This document shows positions 4,653 to 12,444 of a stretch of DNA of 16,497 nucleotides, piece after piece (position 1 is the stretch's first letter; each line of letters starts with the position of its first letter). Made by a program: the position numbers and the translations under genes. Source of the DNA: a virus. The notes under the pieces are model-generated. The model made no database searches. It saw nothing but the letters and a program-made list of their open reading frames with translations, and was not told where the DNA came from. The stretch is taken from the UHGV virus genome UHGV-0097332. One strand, 5' to 3'.

Positions 4653-4859
4653 TCAACTCACAAAACGCCACGCCACTTTTGCTACGACAACAGGCATAAC
4701 ACCGATAATCACCCACAGGAAAATGCTACCGAAAAGCACACCAACCAGGTCTTTACCTTCGCCTACCAGCCGGACAAAACTGCTGGCAACCACAATGAAC
4801 GTCGCCACCATCCACATAGCACCGAGAATCCTCAATGCAGAAAAAATCAACTCAACCAC
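4653..4859 (-). CDS. Hypothetical small membrane protein (68 aa, two predicted transmembrane helices), GTG start
   Basis: Strong ribosome-binding site GGGGGAGAG six nt upstream of a GTG start. Highly hydrophobic product. Lies between the terminator at 4878-4918 and ninB. Confidence 0.4.
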   Translation of the reverse strand: MVELIFSALRILGAMWMVATFIVVASSFVRLVGEGKDLVGVLFGSIFLWVIIGVMPVVVAKVAWRFVS

Positions 4860-4877
4860 GATTTACTCTCCCCCAAA

Positions 4878-4918
4878 TAAAAAGGCCTGCGATTACCAGC
4901 AGGCCTTTATCTTTTTTT
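4878..4918. terminator. Bidirectional intrinsic terminator-like hairpin (possible tR2 analogue)
   Basis: Stem GGCCTGC (4884-4890) / GCAGGCC (4899-4905) with an 8-nt loop, flanked by an A-run upstream and TTTATCTTTTTTT downstream. It therefore looks like a terminator on both strands. Confidence 0.6.
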
Positions 4919-5518
4919 AACACGCTTTCGAGTCCTTTTAGATTTTTCCTTAAGATATTCCGCAAGTTTATCCTCATCATTATTAAATTGAGATAAAAGC
5001 TCATGCTCGCAATTAAGTGCTTTACTCGCATAAGTTCCATATAGTTTCTTTCTTGCTAGTGCTGCTATGAATGCTGCATCTTCTTTGCTATCGAAATACC
5101 CTAACGATATTGTCTTATTTTTATAACCAACATAAGACTTCCACCTGCCAGTTGTCTTATCCCAAGACACTCCAATCGCACCGGATGTGTTTAACCTATT
5201 CCCTACAATGTTTCTTGCATTCTGCTCCTCTGTTGCCAGTCTTAGATTTGAAATCCTATTGTCAAGTCTGTTCCCATTTACATGATCAATAAACTTAGGA
5301 GGCCATTTTTTGTATACATAGAACCAAGCAAGTCTATGCGCATAATACAAAACATTATTTATGCTAATGCATATATAACCACCACTAACACCTCCAGCAA
5401 TACTACCTTTTACTCTTACTACTGAATTTGTTTTTAGCCATTTAAATATTCCTGTTTCTGAGTCATATGATAATGTTGACAGAAGCTCATCGTGATCAAT
5501 TAGTTTTTTTATTCGCAT
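4907..5518 (-). CDS. HNH homing endonuclease with C-terminal AP2-type DNA-binding domain
   Basis: 203-aa ORF. HNH motif region YYAHRLAWFYVYKKWPPKFIDHVNGNRLDNRISNLRLATEEQNARN, then an AP2-like segment GVSWDKTTGRWKSYVGYKNKTISLGYFDSKEDAAFIAA. The gene is markedly AT-rich compared with its flanks. Confidence 0.85.
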   Translation of the reverse strand: MRIKKLIDHDELLSTLSYDSETGIFKWLKTNSVVRVKGSIAGGVSGGYICISINNVLYYAHRLAWFYVYKKWPPKFIDHVNGNRLDNRISNLRLATEEQNARNIVGNRLNTSGAIGVSWDKTTGRWKSYVGYKNKTISLGYFDSKEDAAFIAALARKKLYGTYASKALNCEHELLSQFNNDEDKLAEYLKEKSKRTRKRVKKR

Positions 5519-5596
5519 AAAGAATATACTTAATAATATATACAGTAAGAACCATTAGTAACGATAACCCTGCTATCAGCTCAGTGATGTAGATGG

Positions 5597-6973
5597 TCAT
5601 ACGTCAGCCCCTTGTGCATATCGTCTGCCACGCGCAGCAGGTGCATTTGATGCTGTGCAAATCTGTCTGGCTTCATCCTGGTCACATGCAACAAAGTGTC
5701 CGTTACAGAACCGCTGGTAAACCGTACCAAGTGAGCCAAAACGGTTTTTCGTCACGATGATTTCAGCAAATGGCGCGGCGCTACTGTTCTCGTCATATAC
5801 CGCTTCCCGATAGAGCATGATGATTGAGTCTGCGTCCTGCTCAATGCTTCCTGAATCACGCAAATCTGCGTTTGTCGGGCGTTTGTTTGGTCGCTTCTCA
5901 ACATCGCGTGAAAGCTGACTTAGGGAGATAACAGGCGTTTTCAGGTCTTTCGCCATCGCCTTAAGGCTTCCTGAGATGTGAGCAATTGCGAGGTCGTTGC
6001 GGTCTGCTTTCGGCTTCTCAATCAGGCCAAGATAATCCACCATGATGAGTGAGAGGTTTGGATTTTCCTGTTTGTGTCGTTCTGCGATTGAGCGTATTTC
6101 TTCGACCGATAACCGCGAGGCATCGACTACCCATACATCCAAATCTGCAAGCTGACTCATGCCGTTAGCAACACGCGCCCAGCCTTCGTCATCCATCGAT
6201 GCAGGATTTCGCAGTACGCTAACCGACATCCTCCCGGCGTTGGCAATGCTTCGCTCTGCAATCTGCAATGCGCTCATTTCCATTGAGAAAATCAATACCC
6301 CGCGCCGGACGTCAGAACCAGGAATAACGCGGCTTGCAACGCCTTCGGCAATCTTCAGCGCCAGTTCGGTTTTCCCCATACCAGGACGAGCAGCGATTAT
6401 CACAAGGTCTTCTGCGTTCATCCCTCCGGTGATGGCATCAAGTTCTTCGATTCCGGTCTTCAGGGTATCTGACTCTTCTCCGTTCCTCAGACGCCTGTCA
6501 AGCGTGTCAGTGTAGTCAGTGATGATTTCCCCTAACCGTACAGGTTTAACCTCGTCACGGGGCTTTCTGATGGCTGAGAGACGTTTTACAAGTTCATCCA
6601 TCGCCTGACTCGATGCGTCGATGGTTCCGCTTTGGATTGGTTCACGCATTTCATCCATGATTTTCAGCACCAGACGGCGGTGATAGTTATCCGCGACCAT
6701 TCCGGCATATCCCTTCAGGTTTGCGGCACTCGGGCAGTTTTTGCTGGTCATCAGGATTGACGTGAAATGCTCCTCTCCGCACTCCTCGGCAACCATCAGC
6801 GCGTCGATTAGGTTTCTGTTTCGCGCCTGCTTGCGGATAACCTCGAAGGCTTTTCTGTAGAGCGGAATTGAAAACGCTTCCGGCTCCAGCGTTGCCAGAA
6901 CGTCACTGGCGGTTGGAGTTAATCCACCAATCAGCAGGCCACCGATAACGCTCGCTTCGATATCCTGTCTCAT
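5597..6973 (-). CDS. Replicative DNA helicase, DnaB family (P22 gene-12 type)
   Basis: 458-aa ORF with Walker A GMGKTE, Walker B IMVDYLGL, and DnaB-like motifs. Start overlaps the stop of the upstream initiator gene. Confidence 0.93.
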
Positions 6974-8414: not shown

Positions 8415-8615
8415 TTATGCAGTTGTTTTTTTGTTACTTGGGAAGGGCTTTATTTCTTCCGCATAAACGCTTCCATCAGCGTTTATAGTTAAAAAAATCT
8501 TTCGGCCTGCATGAATGGCCTTGTTAATCGCGCTTTGATATACGCCGAGATCTTTAGCCGTCTTGGTTTGCCCAAAGCGTATTGCATAATCTTTCAGGGT
8601 TATGCGTTGTTCCAT
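8415..8615 (-). CDS. cro: Cro repressor (lambda type)
   Basis: 66-aa [69 protein letters not shown], essentially the lambda Cro sequence as recalled. Confidence 0.97.
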
Positions 8616-8641
8616 ACAACCTCCTTAGTACATGCAACCAT

Positions 8642-8705
8642 TATCACCGCTAGAGGTAAAATAGTCAACACGCACGGTGTTAGATATTTATCCCTTGCGG
8701 TGATA
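8642..8705. promoter_or_regulatory. Right operator OR1-OR2-OR3 with divergent pR (minus) and pRM (plus)
   Basis: OR1 TATCACCGCTAGAGGTA (8642-8658), OR2 CAACACGCACGGTGTTA (8666-8682), OR3 TATCCCTTGCGGTGATA (8689-8705). pR -35 TTGACT and -10 GATAAT are readable on the minus strand. The cI ATG at 8716 sits immediately after pRM, consistent with a leaderless cI message. Confidence 0.9.
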
Positions 8706-8712
8706 GATTTAA

Positions 8713-9429
<717 letters not shown>

Positions 9430-9436
9430 CACGTAA

Positions 9437-9874
9437 ATGATTAAAGAACGTATTTCTTATATCATTCCGATTGCGATGGATGAAGGCAACCCAGTAACTC
9501 CGGTTCTTATCTATGAAATGGATAAAGACTCCCATGAAGTGGATCTATCATTTGGCGCTTTTTTTATCGGCCTTAAGGCTACAAAAAAATATTCCATAGG
9601 CATTGAGGTTTTCAATGCTCAAGAAATACCGATACCAATTGACACAAAACTGTACTCCAACCATAAGTTTTTTACGGTAGCAGAAGCCAACGATGGAGAA
9701 ACCATCGTATCAACTTCTATGAGAATTAACTTCCCAAGGGTGAAAATTATCAAGCCTGGGATATTCGAAGTTAGAGCATCACTGGTTAATCCTGATAAAG
9801 GCGAAGTAATTGATGTAAAAAGTTCGTTTTTTGACGTGAAGATAACAGGATCAGTTCGCGATGAGTTTAGATAA
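9437..9874 (+). CDS. Hypothetical 145-aa protein in the rexA position (first gene of the candidate lysogen-expressed cassette)
   Basis: ORF starts 8 nt after the cI stop and is AT-rich. No transmembrane segment or recognisable motif. It is not RexA (lambda RexA is about 279 aa and unrelated in sequence, as recalled). Confidence 0.7.
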   Translation: MIKERISYIIPIAMDEGNPVTPVLIYEMDKDSHEVDLSFGAFFIGLKATKKYSIGIEVFNAQEIPIPIDTKLYSNHKFFTVAEANDGETIVSTSMRINFPRVKIIKPGIFEVRASLVNPDKGEVIDVKSSFFDVKITGSVRDEFR

Positions 9875-10232
9875 CAAGGTTGCTCAGCTTCGTCCAAATC
9901 AAAACATATCTCGCCCAATTGGACACTATTCCACTGATGATGCATACTCACGGCATGGTGGAGGAAACGGCGGAGGTAACATGCTTGAGGCTAGAGTTGC
10001 AAAGCTAGAGTCTGATGTTGAATACATCAAGCGCGATCTCGCTGAAGTAAAGTCAGATATAAAATCTGTAGATTCTCGTCTGTCAGGTATTGAGACAAGC
10101 ATTAGCTCAGCAAAAATCACCATCAAGGCATCTGCGGTCGTTGTCAGTTTCGTGTTCGCATTTTGCGCCTACATTTTTGGAAGTTATGTTTCCAAAATCC
10201 TTGATGCCTTAAACGGACTCGTTCTTAAGTAA
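9861..10232 (+). CDS. Hypothetical small coiled-coil protein with C-terminal transmembrane helix, in the rexB position (alternative start ATG 9981 gives 83 aa)
   Basis: 123-aa ORF overlapping the upstream ORF by 14 nt. Gly-rich segment, then coiled-coil heptads (LEARVAKLESDVEYIKRDLAEVKSDIKSVDSRL), then hydrophobic helix AVVVSFVFAFCAYIFGSYV. GGAGG motifs lie just upstream of the internal ATG at 9981. Followed directly by a terminator. Confidence 0.7.
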   Translation: MSLDNKVAQLRPNQNISRPIGHYSTDDAYSRHGGGNGGGNMLEARVAKLESDVEYIKRDLAEVKSDIKSVDSRLSGIETSISSAKITIKASAVVVSFVFAFCAYIFGSYVSKILDALNGLVLK

Positions 10233-10239
10233 CACACAA

Positions 10240-10265
10240 CCCGGCCTCAGCGCCGGGTTTTCTTT
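10240..10265 (+). terminator. Intrinsic terminator ending the cI-cassette operon (timm equivalent)
   Basis: Stem CCCGGC (10240-10245) / GCCGGG (10252-10257) with loop CTCAGC, then TTTTCTTT. Matches the sequence I recall downstream of lambda rexB. Confidence 0.8.
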
Positions 10266-10422
10266 GCCTCACGATCCCCTTCACCCAATAACACATAACC
10301 AATTGTATTTATTTGAAAATTAATAGATACAACTCACTAAACATCGCAATTCAGATCTCTCGATCACCTCCCAAGCCACACACCCCTGCAAAAAAATAAA
10401 TCTATATAAAAAACATACAGAT

Positions 10423-10493
10423 AACCATATGCGGTGATAAATTATCTCTGGCGGTGTTGACATAAATACCACTGGCGGTGATACTAAACACAT
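10423..10493 (+). promoter_or_regulatory. pL promoter with OL3-OL2-OL1 operators
   Basis: OL3-like AACCATATGCGGTGATA (10423-10439), OL2 TATCTCTGGCGGTGTTG (10443-10459), OL1 TACCACTGGCGGTGATA (10467-10483). -35 TTGACA (10457-10462) and -10 GATACT (10481-10486). Confidence 0.9.
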
Positions 10494-10733: not shown

Positions 10734-11117
10734 ATGACACGCAGAACTCAGTTCAAAGGCAATTCACGTTCTCGTCGTCGTGAGCGTTTAAAGGCAAAGG
10801 CATTAGCTAACGGCGTACTGGCCCGCGAAGAAGCAATAAGTTCAGAAGTATTACACCGCCCTACTCTAAGCAGAGCGCAGATTCAGGCTAAAGGTACTCA
10901 CGAAACGCCTGATCGCATAGAAGACGCTAAGCCAATTAAGTTCATGGCACAGGACGTGATCTGGCAACAGAAAGAATACAGACGCAATCTGGAGCGAGCG
11001 GCCATTGTGTACGCGAATGAGTTTGGACATAAGCAACCAGAAACTGGTGTATGTCTTCCAAATGTAGCTCTTTACGCGGCAGGCTACCGGAAATCAAAAC
11101 AACTGACAGCGAGGTAA
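10734..11117 (+). CDS. N: N-like transcription antiterminator (arginine-rich motif; not lambda N)
   Basis: 127-aa ORF with an AGGAGG ribosome-binding site. N-terminal arginine-rich motif GNSRSRRRERLKAKA. First gene after pL/nutL. The boxB loop matches the P22 type as recalled. Confidence 0.78.
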   Translation: MTRRTQFKGNSRSRRRERLKAKALANGVLAREEAISSEVLHRPTLSRAQIQAKGTHETPDRIEDAKPIKFMAQDVIWQQKEYRRNLERAAIVYANEFGHKQPETGVCLPNVALYAAGYRKSKQLTAR

Positions 11118-11119
11118 TT

Positions 11120-11482
11120 ATGGGTCAGGAAGAAAAATATGAGCTTAAAAAGCTCATTGGAGAAGACGCCATAGAAGAAATTGCAGCATTAACAACAGCT
11201 ATAAAGAATATTAGGTATGCGCTAAATACGCTTATCTCCTCATGCGACAAAAATAGCAGGGAATTTTTGATACTTGGCGCAGCTCTAGGAATAGTTGATG
11301 CGGCAACGCTTCACCTAATTACTCATGACGATATTCTTATTGAGCCGTATGAAACATTACTGCTTGTCAGGCAAAAAATGGCTGATGCCGCAGCAAATGG
11401 AGACCTTCAACTTTACATCGACTTAAGGAAAGTATTAAGGCGAATGGTCAGAACTGAAGGAGATATCCCCCTGACAAAGTAA
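11120..11482 (+). CDS. Hypothetical early-left protein (120 aa)
   Basis: ATG 2 nt after the N stop (TAATTATGG). Acidic, helical-looking product; no family recognised. The ORF-track extension 11051-11119 overlaps N and is discounted. Confidence 0.55.
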   Translation: MGQEEKYELKKLIGEDAIEEIAALTTAIKNIRYALNTLISSCDKNSREFLILGAALGIVDAATLHLITHDDILIEPYETLLLVRQKMADAAANGDLQLYIDLRKVLRRMVRTEGDIPLTK

Positions 11483-11512: not shown

Positions 11513-12007
11513 TTAATAATTTGTCAGCGGCGGAACATATACAGGCTTAGGGGCTGGCGCTCTATACATCCGGTATTCATTCTTACAGCGAGGACATGAA
11601 TGCACAAAGAATCCATTAGATTTTATAGTAACCGTGCTTGGTTGAAGTATCGATATTTTATGTTCGCCGAAGCAATGTGCACAAAGGTTATGCTGCTGAA
11701 TAGAAGGATCGGAATGACTCTTAGGTCGATACACGACAGAACCACCTTCAGTTGTATGAAGTTCATAATTCTCAGCTTGCACAACAAACATCTTGATTTT
11801 TCTATTTTCATCTCGAAGCTTCATTGCGATCTCCTTCTCGGCCTGATAAAGGCCAGAGAGCTCCGCATTAAGCATCTGTAAGTCAGTTATTCTTTGGTGT
11901 AGATCACCAATAGCTTTAGCGATAACCGCATCGTCTCTGGTTTCTTTTATTGTCTTCAGCAGATCATAAGCCTGTTTCGCGGCAGTTATACCAGATAACA
12001 CATCCAT
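11513..12007 (-). CDS. Hypothetical coiled-coil protein with C-terminal zinc-ribbon (CxxC...CxxC), antisense to the pL operon
   Basis: 164-aa ORF on the opposite strand to all flanking early-left genes. AGAGAG ribosome-binding site upstream of the ATG. C-terminal motif CAHCFGEHK...SCPRCKNEY. AT-rich. Confidence 0.6.
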   Translation of the reverse strand: MDVLSGITAAKQAYDLLKTIKETRDDAVIAKAIGDLHQRITDLQMLNAELSGLYQAEKEIAMKLRDENRKIKMFVVQAENYELHTTEGGSVVYRPKSHSDPSIQQHNLCAHCFGEHKISILQPSTVTIKSNGFFVHSCPRCKNEYRMYRAPAPKPVYVPPLTNY

Positions 12008-12303
12008 ATAAATTACTCTCTTACTGTAGGGGTGAATAGAGTTTATCCGATTTCTCGCTGTAGGGGTACTCGAGAACCACCGAGCCTGATGTGGTTAAAA
12101 GACAGGCATACGAATAAACACTGCACTGTGTATTCATTCCAACGAGTGAATACACGGAGCAATGTCGCTCGTAACTAAACAGGAGCCGACTTGTTCTGAT
12201 TATTGGAAATCTTCTTTGCACTCCAATGTGAGGGCCTTTTTATATGCATACCAATAACGCTTCACTCGAGGCGTTTTCGTTATGTATAAATAAGGAGCAC
12301 ACC

Positions 12304-12444
12304 ATGCAATATGCCATTGCAGGGTGGCCTGTTGCTGGCTGCCCTTCCGAATCTTTACTTGAACGAATCACCCGCAAATTACGTGACGGATGGAAACGAC
12401 TCATCGACGTACTTAATCAGCCAGGAGTTCCCAAAAATGGATAA
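12304..12444 (+). CDS. cIII: CIII (FtsH/HflB inhibitor), 46 aa, ending at TAA relative to the 54-aa lambda protein
   Basis: AAGGAG ribosome-binding site 7 nt upstream. MQYAIAGWPVAGCPSESLLERITRKLRDGWKRLIDVLNQPGVPKNG matches lambda CIII residues 1-46 as recalled. The stop is TAA where lambda has a Ser codon; the out-of-frame downstream codons would still read NTYGYPD. Confidence 0.85.
   Translation: MQYAIAGWPVAGCPSESLLERITRKLRDGWKRLIDVLNQPGVPKNG

What the first reader, a model, noticed from the sequence alone, without database searches (positions are those of the whole stretch)
9437..10232. Unrecognised two-gene cassette in the rexAB slot between cI and the immunity terminator
In lambda, the genes co-transcribed with cI from pRM and ending at this terminator are rexA-rexB, an exclusion/abortive-infection system. 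Here cI, the terminator and pL/OL are lambda-like, but the intervening 0.8 kb encodes two unrelated proteins. The first is a 145-aa soluble protein with no recognisable motif. The second is a small protein with coiled-coil heptads and one C-terminal transmembrane helix, an architecture reminiscent of small membrane-perturbing proteins (holin-like or XhlA-like). The cassette is AT-rich, the genes overlap, and it sits in a locus expressed in lysogens. Together this suggests a sensor plus membrane-effector system protecting the lysogen against other phages.
Basis: partly seen in the sequence, partly recalled or inferred. Interest (0 to 1): 0.85.

Follow-up and report, generated by a model that had tools for sequence, protein, structure and literature searches.

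The report
Two-gene membrane cassette replacing rexAB
In this lambda-like prophage the rexAB exclusion genes beside the repressor gene are replaced by two uncharacterised genes, a small soluble binding protein and a membrane-anchored coiled-coil protein, from a widespread mix-and-match prophage family that probably protects lysogens from other phages, though nobody has tested this.

Summary
Two overlapping genes fill the space between the stop codon of a lambda-type cI and the lambda immunity terminator: geneA (9437-9874, 145 aa) and geneB (9861-10232, 123 aa). Similarity to lambda stops at the cI stop codon and resumes at the terminator hairpin.

GeneA folds as a cytoplasmic beta-sandwich with no catalytic motif. 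GeneB has a disordered N-tail, a GGGNGGG hinge, seven perfect heptads and one C-terminal membrane helix. Neither matches RexA/RexB, any PADLOC defence model or any solved structure. The "XhlA" label on geneB homologues rests on sub-threshold coiled-coil similarity.

The new result is that the pair belongs to a large modular family of Enterobacterales prophages, with at least 479 geneB clusters. The geneB hinge and coiled coil are constant. The upstream partner comes in at least three unrelated classes, and the geneB N-tail changes with it. The membrane anchor swaps independently. The pair usually sits directly after a repressor gene.

A synonymous-site bias also suggests an internal start codon that would give a tail-less geneB isoform.

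A Rex-like "sensor plus membrane effector" defence role is the best reading. It rests on position and architecture only, with confidence about 0.4. The epsilon34 genome paper (2008) had already noted the homologous pair as "like rexA and rexB".

The parts
8616..8715 (.). OR1-OR3 with divergent pR and pRM; pRM drives cI-geneA-geneB in the lysogen
   Evidence: 98% identical to the lambda OR region. pR hexamers found at 8668..8640 on the minus strand. pRM itself is inferred from lambda homology, not detected independently.
8716..9429 (+). cI repressor, lambda type, 237 aa
   Evidence: Pfam HTH_3 plus Peptidase_S24. Full-length copies at 95% identity or more occur in 618 of 5426 complete E. coli genomes.
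9437..9874 (+). geneA: 145-aa cytoplasmic beta-sandwich protein, the variable partner module
9861..9874 (+). 14-nt overlap of the geneA 3' end with the geneB start (translational coupling)
   Evidence: Read directly from the sequence. The same overlap, or a 1-8 nt overlap or abutment, is found in all related loci.
9861..10232 (+). geneB: 123-aa tail-anchored coiled-coil membrane protein
   Evidence: phrog_6136 at 3.6e-46. At least 479 homologous clusters. AlphaFold models residues 1-40 as disordered and 41-121 as a helix. Heptads and membrane helix confirmed.
9861..9956 (+). geneB N-tail (residues 1-32): variable, co-varies with the partner class; proposed docking peptide for geneA
   Evidence: Module table. 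Spearman correlation between geneA identity and N-tail identity is 0.49, Mantel p about 5e-4. pLDDT below 50.
9957..9980 (+). Gly hinge GGGNGGGN. Its codons contain GGAGG at 9972-9976, 4 nt before ATG 9981, a candidate internal Shine-Dalgarno
   Evidence: The Gly codon at position -4 is GGA in 24 of 35 non-redundant genes, against 39 of 167 at other Gly positions (Fisher p=1e-6).
9981..10127 (+). Conserved Met41 (candidate internal start) and a seven-heptad coiled coil, MLEARVAKLESDVEYIKRD...
   Evidence: Met in 54 of 58 unique genes, GTG-Val in 3. The a/d positions are 100% hydrophobic. Some database gene calls start exactly here (P0073, P0093).
10128..10232 (+). Membrane helix (residues 90-110), amphipathic tail SKILDALNGLVLK and stop codon: the 'type I' anchor module
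   Evidence: Kyte-Doolittle maximum 2.11. dN/dS 0.05 at dS about 2.5 against a Klebsiella homologue. At least 6 alternative anchor modules occur in the family.
10238..10269 (+). Timm, the intrinsic terminator of the immunity transcript
   Evidence: Terminator scan. Identical hairpin in lambda and CL707, where it is annotated Timm.
10423..10485 (+). OL3-OL2-OL1 and pL (-35 at 10457-10462, -10 at 10480-10485)
   Evidence: Promoter scan scores 10 of 12. Near-identical to lambda, with one substitution in OL3.
10734..11117 (+). N antiterminator, first gene of the pL operon (boundary of the slot)
   Evidence: Pfam N_peptide at 1.3e-15.

Best explanation
GeneA and geneB form a lysogen-expressed, two-protein, inner-membrane module. 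It works by the same logic as RexAB but uses unrelated parts. Most likely it is an abortive-infection or exclusion system directed against other phages.

**Shown.**
- Both genes lie inside the cI transcription unit (pRM/pRE to Timm) and are translationally coupled.
- GeneB is a tail-anchored protein made of a disordered N-tail, a Gly hinge, a seven-heptad parallel coiled coil running straight into one membrane helix, and a short amphipathic tail.
- GeneA is a soluble beta-sandwich with no catalytic signature, that is, a binding module.
- The family is modular: the hinge and coiled-coil start are constant, while partner class and N-tail vary together and the anchor module swaps independently.

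**Inferred.**
- GeneA docks on the N-tail of geneB. The tail carries a recurrent short hydrophobic-x-hydrophobic-x-(P/N/G) strand-like motif.
- GeneB oligomerises through the coiled coil, probably as a trimer, because beta-branched residues sit at both a and d positions.
- While bound, geneA keeps the geneB membrane-helix bundle inert.
- When a component of an infecting phage engages or titrates geneA, the bundle rearranges and compromises the membrane. The infection is then aborted or genome entry is blocked.
- A tail-less short isoform of geneB, made from an internal start at Met41, may co-assemble and set the activation threshold.
For: **Position and expression.**
- The cassette is an exact replacement of rexAB between the cI stop codon and Timm.
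- The same pair lies directly downstream of five or more different repressor types in E. coli, Salmonella, Enterobacter, Klebsiella and Yersinia prophages.
- This slot holds the abortive-infection systems RexAB and BstA and is transcribed with the repressor (PMC8585504; PMC7067206).

**Obligate pairing.**
- Every geneB-family gene examined has an abutting or overlapping upstream partner. This covers about 90 loci; the apparent exceptions were start-codon artefacts.
- The most distant geneA relatives are also followed by a geneB-type gene.

**Modularity typical of conflict systems.**
- There are at least 3 unrelated partner classes: beta-sandwich, CxxC...CxxC zinc ribbon, and a roughly 90-aa class.
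- There are at least 6 anchor modules.
- 69 of 69 sequence pairs with N-tail identity of 60% or more also have partner identity of 60% or more.
- 169 pairs with under 30% partner identity share a C-terminal module (second half of the coiled coil plus anchor) that is at least 60% identical.

**Protein features.**
- Strong purifying selection acts on the coiled-coil/anchor module, with dN/dS 0.05, so it is more than a passive anchor.
- GeneA is a confident beta-sandwich with no conserved polar catalytic residues. The invariant positions are P, G, L, Y and F.
- GeneB heptads and membrane helix are confirmed, and its PDB profile hits lean towards trimeric coiled coils.

**Internal start.**
Against: - No experiment, and no homology to any known defence protein. 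PADLOC gave nothing significant, while its RexA/RexB models work on lambda as a positive control.
- Co-variation of partner and N-tail could simply reflect physical adjacency, with recombination at the conserved hinge.
- A bundle of single membrane helices is a weak candidate for a pore.
- The anchor is swappable among unrelated sequences, which also fits a plain tether.
- The cassette is rare: 14-16 of 5426 complete E. coli genomes and 8 of 50,697 phage records.
- The PADLOC library dates from 2023, and one relevant 2025 screen (Brenes & Laub) could not be read.
- The statistics for the internal start are not corrected for shared ancestry.
Confidence: 0.4

Rival explanations
1. Non-lethal superinfection exclusion by a tethered binding head. 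GeneB is only an oligomeric membrane tether. It holds several copies of the variable binding module (geneA or its zinc-ribbon and other substitutes) at the cytoplasmic face of the inner membrane. There they intercept an incoming phage component, such as an ejection protein, the tape measure or the DNA end, and block genome entry without killing the cell. P22 SieA, T4 Imm and HK97 gp15 act in this way.
For: - The partner modules are binding folds, not enzymes.
- The anchor module is exchangeable among at least 6 unrelated sequences.
- The Gly hinge and long coiled coil look like a stalk that presents a head.
- The cassette also occurs in tail-gene and Arc-adjacent moron slots, like known exclusion genes.
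Against: - Within each anchor type the membrane helix and its tail are extremely conserved, with dN/dS 0.05. That is more than a passive tether needs.
- Almost nothing of geneB is exposed in the periplasm, where known entry blockers usually act.
- There is no similarity to SieA, Imm or gp15-type proteins in PHROGs or Pfam.
Confidence: 0.2
2. A toxin-antitoxin-like or lysis-related module that serves the prophage itself rather than acting against other phages. GeneB would be a small membrane toxin or XhlA/holin-like lysis accessory, and geneA its cognate neutraliser. The pair would stabilise the prophage, time lysis or influence induction.
For: - The order 'neutraliser first, membrane protein second', with overlapping genes, resembles type II TA operons.
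- A conserved effector with swapped cognate partners is also seen in TA families.
- There is weak XhlA similarity: E=1.3e-3 for the window protein, best 8.3e-6 in the family, and NCBI names homologues 'hemolysin XhlA'.
- A possible dual start recalls holin/antiholin pairs.
Against: - The genes are in the repressor operon and end at Timm, so they are on in lysogens and off during lytic growth. This is the opposite of lysis genes.
- The window's own lysis genes lie elsewhere; a lysozyme gene is at 86-583.
- The XhlA score is below Pfam's cut-off and covers only the coiled coil. FlaC_arch matches more members.
- GeneA has no DNA-binding domain.
Confidence: 0.15
3. A lysogenic-conversion moron that alters host physiology and has no role in phage-phage conflict. 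It might affect envelope stress, ribosome or membrane-associated processes, or virulence.
For: - Other lysogen-expressed morons have such roles, for example bor and lom in lambda (PMC7067206).
- The cassette is present in the EPEC E2348/69 prophage.
- Tail-anchored coiled-coil proteins of E. coli such as ElaB and YqjD have physiological roles (my own knowledge, not tested here).
Against: - Extreme partner and tail diversification with a conserved core is more typical of an arms race than of a housekeeping interaction.
- There is no match to any virulence or stress family.
Confidence: 0.15

Closest known systems
Lambda RexA/RexB
   Same: - Identical genomic slot, from the cI stop codon to Timm.
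- Co-transcription with the repressor in lysogens.
- One soluble and one inner-membrane protein.
- A possible way of changing the ratio of the two activities. Lambda uses pLit and an excess of RexB; here it may be an internal start in geneB.
   Different: - No sequence relationship. GeneA against RexA gives E=10. GeneB against RexB gives one marginal 49-residue pairwise hit at E=0.004, while the PADLOC RexA/RexB profiles do not match.
- RexA is 279 aa and RexB is a protein with four membrane helices. Here there is a 145-aa beta-sandwich and a single-pass tail-anchored coiled coil.
- Function is untested here.
XhlA of Bacillus prophage PBSX (Pfam PF10779)
   Same: A small phage protein with an N-terminal coiled coil followed by a C-terminal membrane helix. 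NCBI labels type I geneB homologues 'hemolysin XhlA'.
   Different: - The score is below the Pfam gathering threshold (19.3 against 34.7 bits), and the match covers only the coiled coil (profile positions 9-55 of 67).
- FlaC_arch matches more family members.
- XhlA lies in a late lysis cassette with a holin and an endolysin. GeneB lies in the repressor operon and has an extra N-tail, a Gly hinge and an obligate upstream partner.
BstA of Salmonella prophage BTP1
   Same: Encoded directly downstream of the prophage repressor and expressed from its promoter, in P22-like and lambdoid prophages. It is a proven abortive-infection defence (PMC8585504).
   Different: BstA is a single large soluble protein acting at phage DNA replication sites, with an aba self-immunity element. 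It has no homology and no membrane component.
Salmonella phage epsilon34 gp45/gp44 (also g341c gp40/gp39)
   Same: - True homologues: about 77% nucleotide identity, and 74-76% protein identity for geneA.
- Same position after the repressor.
- Flagged in 2008 as 'like rexA and rexB'.
   Different: - A different repressor.
- gp44 shares the N-tail and hinge but carries a different coiled-coil/anchor module (103 aa).
- Its function is equally unknown.
Holin/antiholin dual-start genes (lambda S107/S105)
   Same: Possibly two products from one membrane-protein gene through two in-frame starts, with an internal Shine-Dalgarno embedded in the coding sequence.
   Different: - The starts are 40 codons apart rather than 2.
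- The gene is not a holin and not in a lysis cassette.
- The internal start is inferred from codon bias only.
Mycobacteriophage Butters gp30/gp31 prophage defence pair
   Same: A lysogen-expressed pair of a cytoplasmic and a membrane protein near the immunity genes that defends against heterotypic phages (PMC7542560, listed; not read in detail).
   Different: Different host phylum and no sequence relationship tested or expected. This is an analogy only.

Membership tests
RexAB (lambda exclusion system) | Sequence homology to RexA and RexB | tested here: not met
   PADLOC RexA/RexB models hit lambda's proteins at 9e-110 and 8.6e-61 but not geneA or geneB at E<=10. BLASTP of geneA against RexA gives E=10. 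GeneB against RexB gives only a 49-residue pairwise hit at E=0.004.
RexAB (lambda exclusion system) | Location between cI and Timm, co-transcribed from pRM | tested here: met
   Junction alignments and terminator scan.
RexAB (lambda exclusion system) | RexB-type polytopic membrane protein with four membrane helices | tested here: not met
   GeneB has a single hydrophobic segment at residues 90-110.
RexAB (lambda exclusion system) | Excludes T4 rII and other phages by membrane depolarisation | not testable with these tools
   Needs plating and membrane-potential assays.
XhlA (Pfam PF10779) | Score at or above the Pfam gathering threshold over the whole domain | tested here: not met
   19.3 bits against a cut-off of 34.7, matching profile positions 9-55 of 67 only. 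44 of 69 family members match at E<=0.01 with a best value of 8.3e-6, but the unrelated coiled-coil family FlaC_arch matches 54 of 69.
XhlA (Pfam PF10779) | Architecture: short coiled coil plus a C-terminal membrane helix | tested here: met
XhlA (Pfam PF10779) | Encoded in a lysis cassette next to a holin and an endolysin | tested here: not met
   GeneB lies in the repressor operon. The window's lysozyme gene is at 86-583, about 9 kb away.
Holins | Membership of a holin family, or location in a late lysis operon | tested here: not met
   Only a weak PHROG hit to a holin/antiholin family (phrog_10340, E=0.0028) within the coiled coil. The context is wrong.
Known anti-phage defence systems (PADLOC-DB v2.0.0, 2023) | Significant match to any defence-protein model | tested here: not met
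   GeneA has no hits. The best hits for geneB are CorA-like at E=0.0039 and LmuB at E=0.034, both coiled-coil noise. Systems described after 2023 are not covered.
Type II toxin-antitoxin modules | Two small overlapping genes, with the neutraliser upstream of the toxin | tested here: inconclusive
   Gene order and overlap fit. GeneA has no DNA-binding domain, and toxicity of geneB is untested.
geneA/geneB prophage family defined here (phrog_5893 + phrog_6136 and relatives) | GeneB with N-tail, Gly tract, M-x(2-4)-RVAKLE coiled coil and a C-terminal membrane helix, preceded by a translationally coupled small partner | tested here: met
   The window pair is the type I form. About 90 related loci share the layout.

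The most novel reading that the evidence does not exclude
The cassette is the type member of a previously unrecognised, Enterobacterales-wide class of modular prophage immune systems. A conserved tail-anchored, oligomeric coiled-coil membrane effector accepts interchangeable sensor heads of at least three unrelated folds, each docking on a matching N-terminal peptide. Its threshold is set by a tail-less isoform made from an internal start hidden in the glycine hinge. This would be a plug-and-play alternative to RexAB.
Probability: 0.25. Interest if true: 0.8.

Novelty: new variant of a known kind. Interest (0 to 1): 0.6.

Why it matters
RexAB has been the textbook prophage exclusion system for more than 60 years, and its mechanism is still unclear. 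In complete E. coli genomes only 99 carry rexAB, while 618 carry a full-length lambda-type cI. Most lambda-immunity prophages therefore hold other, largely unknown cargo in this highly expressed slot.

This cassette is one such cargo. It turns out to be one face of a large mix-and-match family, which gives clear handles for experiments:
- swap partners and N-tails to test specificity;
- delete the tail or mutate Met41 to test activation;
- express the anchor module alone to test toxicity.

If it is a defence system, it adds a compact two-gene module of about 0.8 kb with exchangeable sensors. That would be useful both for understanding how prophages sense rivals and as a small engineerable part. 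If it is not, it still corrects a misleading database name ("hemolysin XhlA").

Tried and rejected
- **Complex prediction.** The proposed docking of geneA on the geneB N-tail therefore remains an inference.
- **Locus search with the broad geneA alignment.** It failed because no stretch was conserved enough. I used single distant members instead. P0102 found nothing.
- **Sequence searches against solved structures.** GeneA found none. GeneB found only coiled coils.
- **Literature.** No paper mentions the RefSeq accessions. None links XhlA-like proteins to defence. The DefensePredictor supplements contain neither protein. HepS (PMC13043305) is unrelated. Brenes & Laub 2025, on E. coli prophage defence systems, is not held in the library and could not be checked.
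- **Lysis accessory or holin: rejected.** The regulatory context is wrong and the match is sub-threshold.
- **Chance ORFs: rejected.** dN/dS and conservation across genera rule this out.
- **Real geneB start at Met41 with an untranslated N-tail: rejected.** The upstream frame stays open and abuts the partner's stop codon in every family. It also shows dN/dS of 0.32.
- **Antisense ORF 9619-9951 (110 aa).** Treated as a by-product of the coding strand. It has no independent support.
Full report
**1. The observation**

The window is the immunity region of a lambdoid prophage, read on lambda's leftward strand. The features, in order, are:
- cro at 8415-8615 on the minus strand;
- an OR/pRM/pR region 98% identical to lambda;
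- a 237-aa lambda-type cI at 8716-9429 (Pfam HTH_3 + Peptidase_S24);
- two overlapping ORFs: geneA at 9437-9874 (145 aa) and geneB at 9861-10232 (123 aa);
- an intrinsic terminator at 10238-10259;
- OL3-OL1/pL at 10423-10485;
- N at 10734-11117.

Alignment with lambda and with phage CL707 shows that similarity ends at the cI stop codon. It resumes exactly at the Timm hairpin, 5 nt after the geneB stop. The cassette is therefore a clean replacement of rexAB.

It is mildly AT-rich, at GC 0.38-0.43. No internal promoter scores above chance. GeneA starts 7 nt after the cI stop, and geneB starts 14 nt before the geneA stop. Both genes must therefore be made from the cI transcript by coupled translation.

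dN/dS values of 0.05-0.32 against homologues from other genera, with synonymous sites near saturation, show that both are real genes.

**2. The two proteins**

*GeneA.*
- It has no Pfam, NCBIfam or PADLOC match. It does match phrog_5893, of unknown function.
- It has no hydrophobic segment or signal peptide.
- With 19 homologues, AlphaFold gives a confident eight-stranded beta-sandwich (pLDDT 86.6, pTM 0.82).
- BFVD returns only uncharacterised phage proteins. A profile search of PDB sequences finds nothing.
- Across the superfamily the invariant residues are P11, P22, G45, L46, Y52, G108 and F132. These are core residues, not a catalytic set. I read geneA as a binding module.

*GeneB.*
- Residues 1-40 are modelled as disordered, and residues 41-121 form one continuous helix.
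- Residues 33-39 are GGGNGGG.
- Residues 42-88 form seven uninterrupted heptads. The a positions are V46, V53, L60, I67, L74, I81 and I88. The d positions are L49, I56, V63, V70, I77 and A84. All are hydrophobic.
- Beta-branched residues at both a and d positions suggest a trimer or higher parallel oligomer. So does the run of trimeric coiled coils among its weak PDB hits, including Lpp, P22 gp26, reovirus sigma-1 and trimeric autotransporters. This is an inference.
- The only hydrophobic segment is at about 90-110. It is followed by the amphipathic tail SKILDALNGLVLK.
- With about 90 hydrophilic residues and no signal sequence, the N-terminus should stay in the cytoplasm. That makes geneB a tail-anchored protein (inference).

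**3. Relatives and context**

The cassette is 98.6-99.9% identical in 14 complete E. coli genomes, and 16 of 5426 have some match. One is the EPEC E2348/69 prophage.

It is about 77% identical at the nucleotide level in Salmonella phages epsilon34 (gp45/gp44), g341c and NM-3. In all of them it lies directly after a repressor gene. In E. coli PK5 it follows a 231-aa repressor that matches the window's cI at the aligned 3' end of the gene (about 50 nt) but is annotated as a different, shorter protein.

GeneA proper is narrow, with 20 clusters. An exhaustive profile search of 1.8 billion representatives found only 19 hits at E of 1e-3 or better, mostly proteins of 130-150 aa.

GeneB is much broader, with 73 clusters from a single-sequence search and at least 479 with a profile. 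The genera are Escherichia, Salmonella, Klebsiella, Raoultella, Enterobacter, Citrobacter, Kluyvera, Yersinia, Providencia, Serratia, Pantoea, Erwinia, Rahnella and Atlantibacter.

For scale, in complete E. coli genomes a full-length lambda-type cI occurs in 618 and rexAB in 99.

**4. The main new finding: a modular family**

I collected about 90 loci encoding geneB relatives and parsed them with scripts.

*Pairing.* Every geneB-type gene has a small upstream partner on the same strand whose stop abuts or overlaps the geneB start. The four apparent exceptions were start-codon artefacts.

*Partner classes.* There are at least three unrelated classes.
- Very divergent members of the geneA beta-sandwich superfamily, 126-187 aa. 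An HMM recovers them at E values between 1e-4 and 1e-65, and they fall in phrog_5893/5881.
- CxxC...CxxC zinc-ribbon proteins of 103-132 aa (phrog_4293).
- A class of about 90 aa (phrog_4231).

*GeneB modules.* GeneB itself is a mosaic.
- A variable N-tail of 17-49 residues.
- The Gly tract.
- A nearly invariant M-L-E-A-R-V-A-K-L-E-[SA]-D-[VI] start to the coiled coil.
- Then at least six unrelated coiled-coil/anchor modules.

*Co-variation.*
- Partner identity tracks N-tail identity (Spearman 0.49, Mantel p about 5e-4).
- It does not track identity of the C-terminal module, that is, the second half of the coiled coil plus the anchor (0.09).
- All 69 sequence pairs with N-tail identity of 60% or more also have partner identity of 60% or more.
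- 169 pairs with under 30% partner identity share a C-terminal module that is at least 60% identical.
- The window, EPSSH018 and epsilon34 share geneA and the N-tail but carry three different anchors. Klebsiella L010 shares the window's anchor at dN/dS 0.05 but has a zinc-ribbon partner and a different tail.

*The reverse test.* The most distant geneA relatives, the P0110 and P0100 families, are also followed by a geneB-type gene. One exception is L103.

*Location.* Most cassettes follow a repressor of the S24 or HTH type. Some sit in other moron slots: next to an Arc-like gene upstream of baseplate genes in Providencia, and between tail genes in L095 and L101.

*Tail motif.* The N-tails of nearly all classes begin with a short hydrophobic-x-hydrophobic-x-(P/N/G) pattern, for example VAQLRPN, VTILRPG, VYSFNPA and VVQLRAG (read). 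This would suit beta-strand addition to the partner. That is an inference.

*Caveat.* Co-variation of adjacent segments can arise from linkage alone, with recombination at the conserved hinge. I could not run a complex prediction.

**5. A possible second product**

A Met sits 3-5 residues before RVAKLE, at a non-core heptad position. It is Met in 54 of 58 unique genes, and in three others it is Val, always encoded GTG.

GGAGG, AGGAGG or GGAG lies 4-8 nt upstream of this codon in 48 of 57 genes, most often 7 nt.

In 37 non-redundant genes, the Gly codon four codons upstream is GGA in 24 of 35 and GGG in 6. GGA accounts for only 39 of 167 codons at the other Gly positions of the tract. Fisher p is 1e-6 for GGA and 2e-10 for a purine at the wobble base. 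Neither is corrected for phylogeny.

Some database gene calls begin exactly at this Met.

In the window, GGAGG is at 9972-9976 and the ATG at 9981. This suggests an internal Shine-Dalgarno that would yield an 83-residue tail-less isoform.

The long form is also real. The upstream frame is always open, is coupled to the partner's stop, and shows dN/dS of 0.32.

**6. Mechanism**

I commit to the following model. Confidence is about 0.4 for "anti-phage module with Rex-like logic". Confidence in the individual steps is lower.
- GeneA docks on the geneB N-tail in the cytoplasm.
- GeneB oligomerises through its coiled coil, so that several membrane helices and several geneA-loaded tails come together.
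- In the lysogen the complex is inert.
- A component of an incoming phage binds or titrates the partner module. The membrane-helix bundle then rearranges and damages membrane integrity, aborting the infection.
- The tail-less isoform would co-assemble and tune the threshold.

What is shown: the position and operon structure, the gene coupling, the folds, the modularity and the selection. What is inferred: docking, oligomeric state, activation and phenotype.

Rivals:
- a non-lethal tethered-decoy exclusion system (0.2);
- a TA-like or lysis-related module serving the prophage (0.15);
- a host-physiology moron (0.15).

The lysis idea is weakened by the regulatory context, because the genes are on in lysogens and stop at Timm. 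A plain-tether view is weakened by very strong purifying selection on the anchor.

**7. Comparison with known systems**

- **RexAB.** Same slot and same soluble-plus-membrane logic, but no homology. The PADLOC RexA/RexB models work on lambda and do not match here. BLASTP of geneA against RexA gives E=10, and geneB against RexB gives one marginal 49-residue hit at E=0.004. RexB has four membrane helices. This cassette is not a member.
- **XhlA.** The architecture is similar, but the score is below the gathering threshold, the match covers the coiled coil only, and the context is wrong. Membership is not established, and the NCBI label looks like over-annotation.
- **BstA.** Shares the slot only.
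- **epsilon34 gp45/gp44.** These are true homologues. The 2008 genome paper already noted them as downstream of the repressor "like rexA and rexB", with no database matches.
- **The cI-N interval.** It is a published hotspot of mosaic cargo (Degnan et al. 2007, as cited).

**8. Novelty and verdict**

The existence of unknown cargo in the rex slot is known, and this particular pair was flagged in 2008. I believe the following points are new, as far as the searchable literature shows:
- the extent of the family;
- its partner/tail/anchor modularity;
- the structural description of both proteins;
- the candidate internal start.

One relevant 2025 screen could not be read. Function remains untested.

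I rate it a new variant of a known kind: a lysogen-expressed two-protein exclusion cassette built from unrelated parts. Interest is 0.6.

Noticed in passing
window 9957-9983: The glycine hinge of geneB is encoded so that GGAGG lies just upstream of a conserved in-frame ATG (Met41). Across the family the Gly codon at position -4 is GGA far more often than at neighbouring Gly codons. This suggests an internal ribosome-binding site and a tail-less short isoform.
   Followed up: yes
window 4800-5700 (ORF 4907-5518, minus strand): This is the most AT-rich stretch of the window (GC 0.30-0.39). It holds a 203-aa HNH_3 + AP2 domain protein, a homing-endonuclease-like gene, inserted between the DnaB-like helicase gene and ninB.
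   Followed up: partly
window 11513-12007 (minus strand): A 164-aa ORF on the strand opposite to the pL operon, between N and cIII. It has an N-terminal coiled coil and a C-terminal CxxC...CxxC zinc ribbon, with no family match in Pfam, NCBIfam or PADLOC. It may be another moron. Its zinc ribbon recalls the zinc-ribbon partner class of the geneB family, but I did not compare them.
   Followed up: partly
window 11120-11482 (plus strand): A 120-aa ORF immediately after N with no family match. CL707 also has an unannotated hypothetical gene in this position.
   Followed up: no
window 10423-10439: OL3 differs from lambda OL3 by one base (AACCATATGCGGTGATA against AACCATCTGCGGTGATA). OL1 and OL2 are identical to lambda.
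   Followed up: no
window 12291-12349 and 920-1072: Rfam finds the lambda cIII thermoregulator element (88.5 bits). It also finds two tRNA genes on the minus strand, downstream (in the late direction) of the Q antiterminator gene at 1347-1970 and towards the lysozyme gene, as in the E2348/69 prophage.
   Followed up: no
L012/L013 3011-3869; L095 2501-3257; L101 2489-3473: Cassettes of the same family occur outside the repressor slot. One is next to an Arc-like gene upstream of baseplate genes in Providencia. Others lie between tail genes in other prophages. This shows the pair moves as an autonomous moron.
   Followed up: partly
P0024 and window 10090-10212 (+1 frame): Some database copies of geneB carry a frameshift that replaces the membrane helix with the +1-frame peptide ...RHLRSLSVSCSHFAPTFLEVMFPKSLMP. 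These are either natural knock-outs of the anchor or sequencing errors.
   Followed up: no
L006-L011, just downstream of geneB: In Enterobacter, Klebsiella and Yersinia prophages a small gene on the opposite strand (67-214 aa; DUF2767 in Yersinia) immediately follows geneB. The window has only Timm at that position.
   Followed up: no
E. coli complete genomes: A full-length lambda-type cI is present in 618 of 5426 genomes, but rexAB in only 99. Most lambda-immunity prophages therefore carry other cargo in this slot, such as the NYN-domain gene of CL707/ev099.
   Followed up: partly
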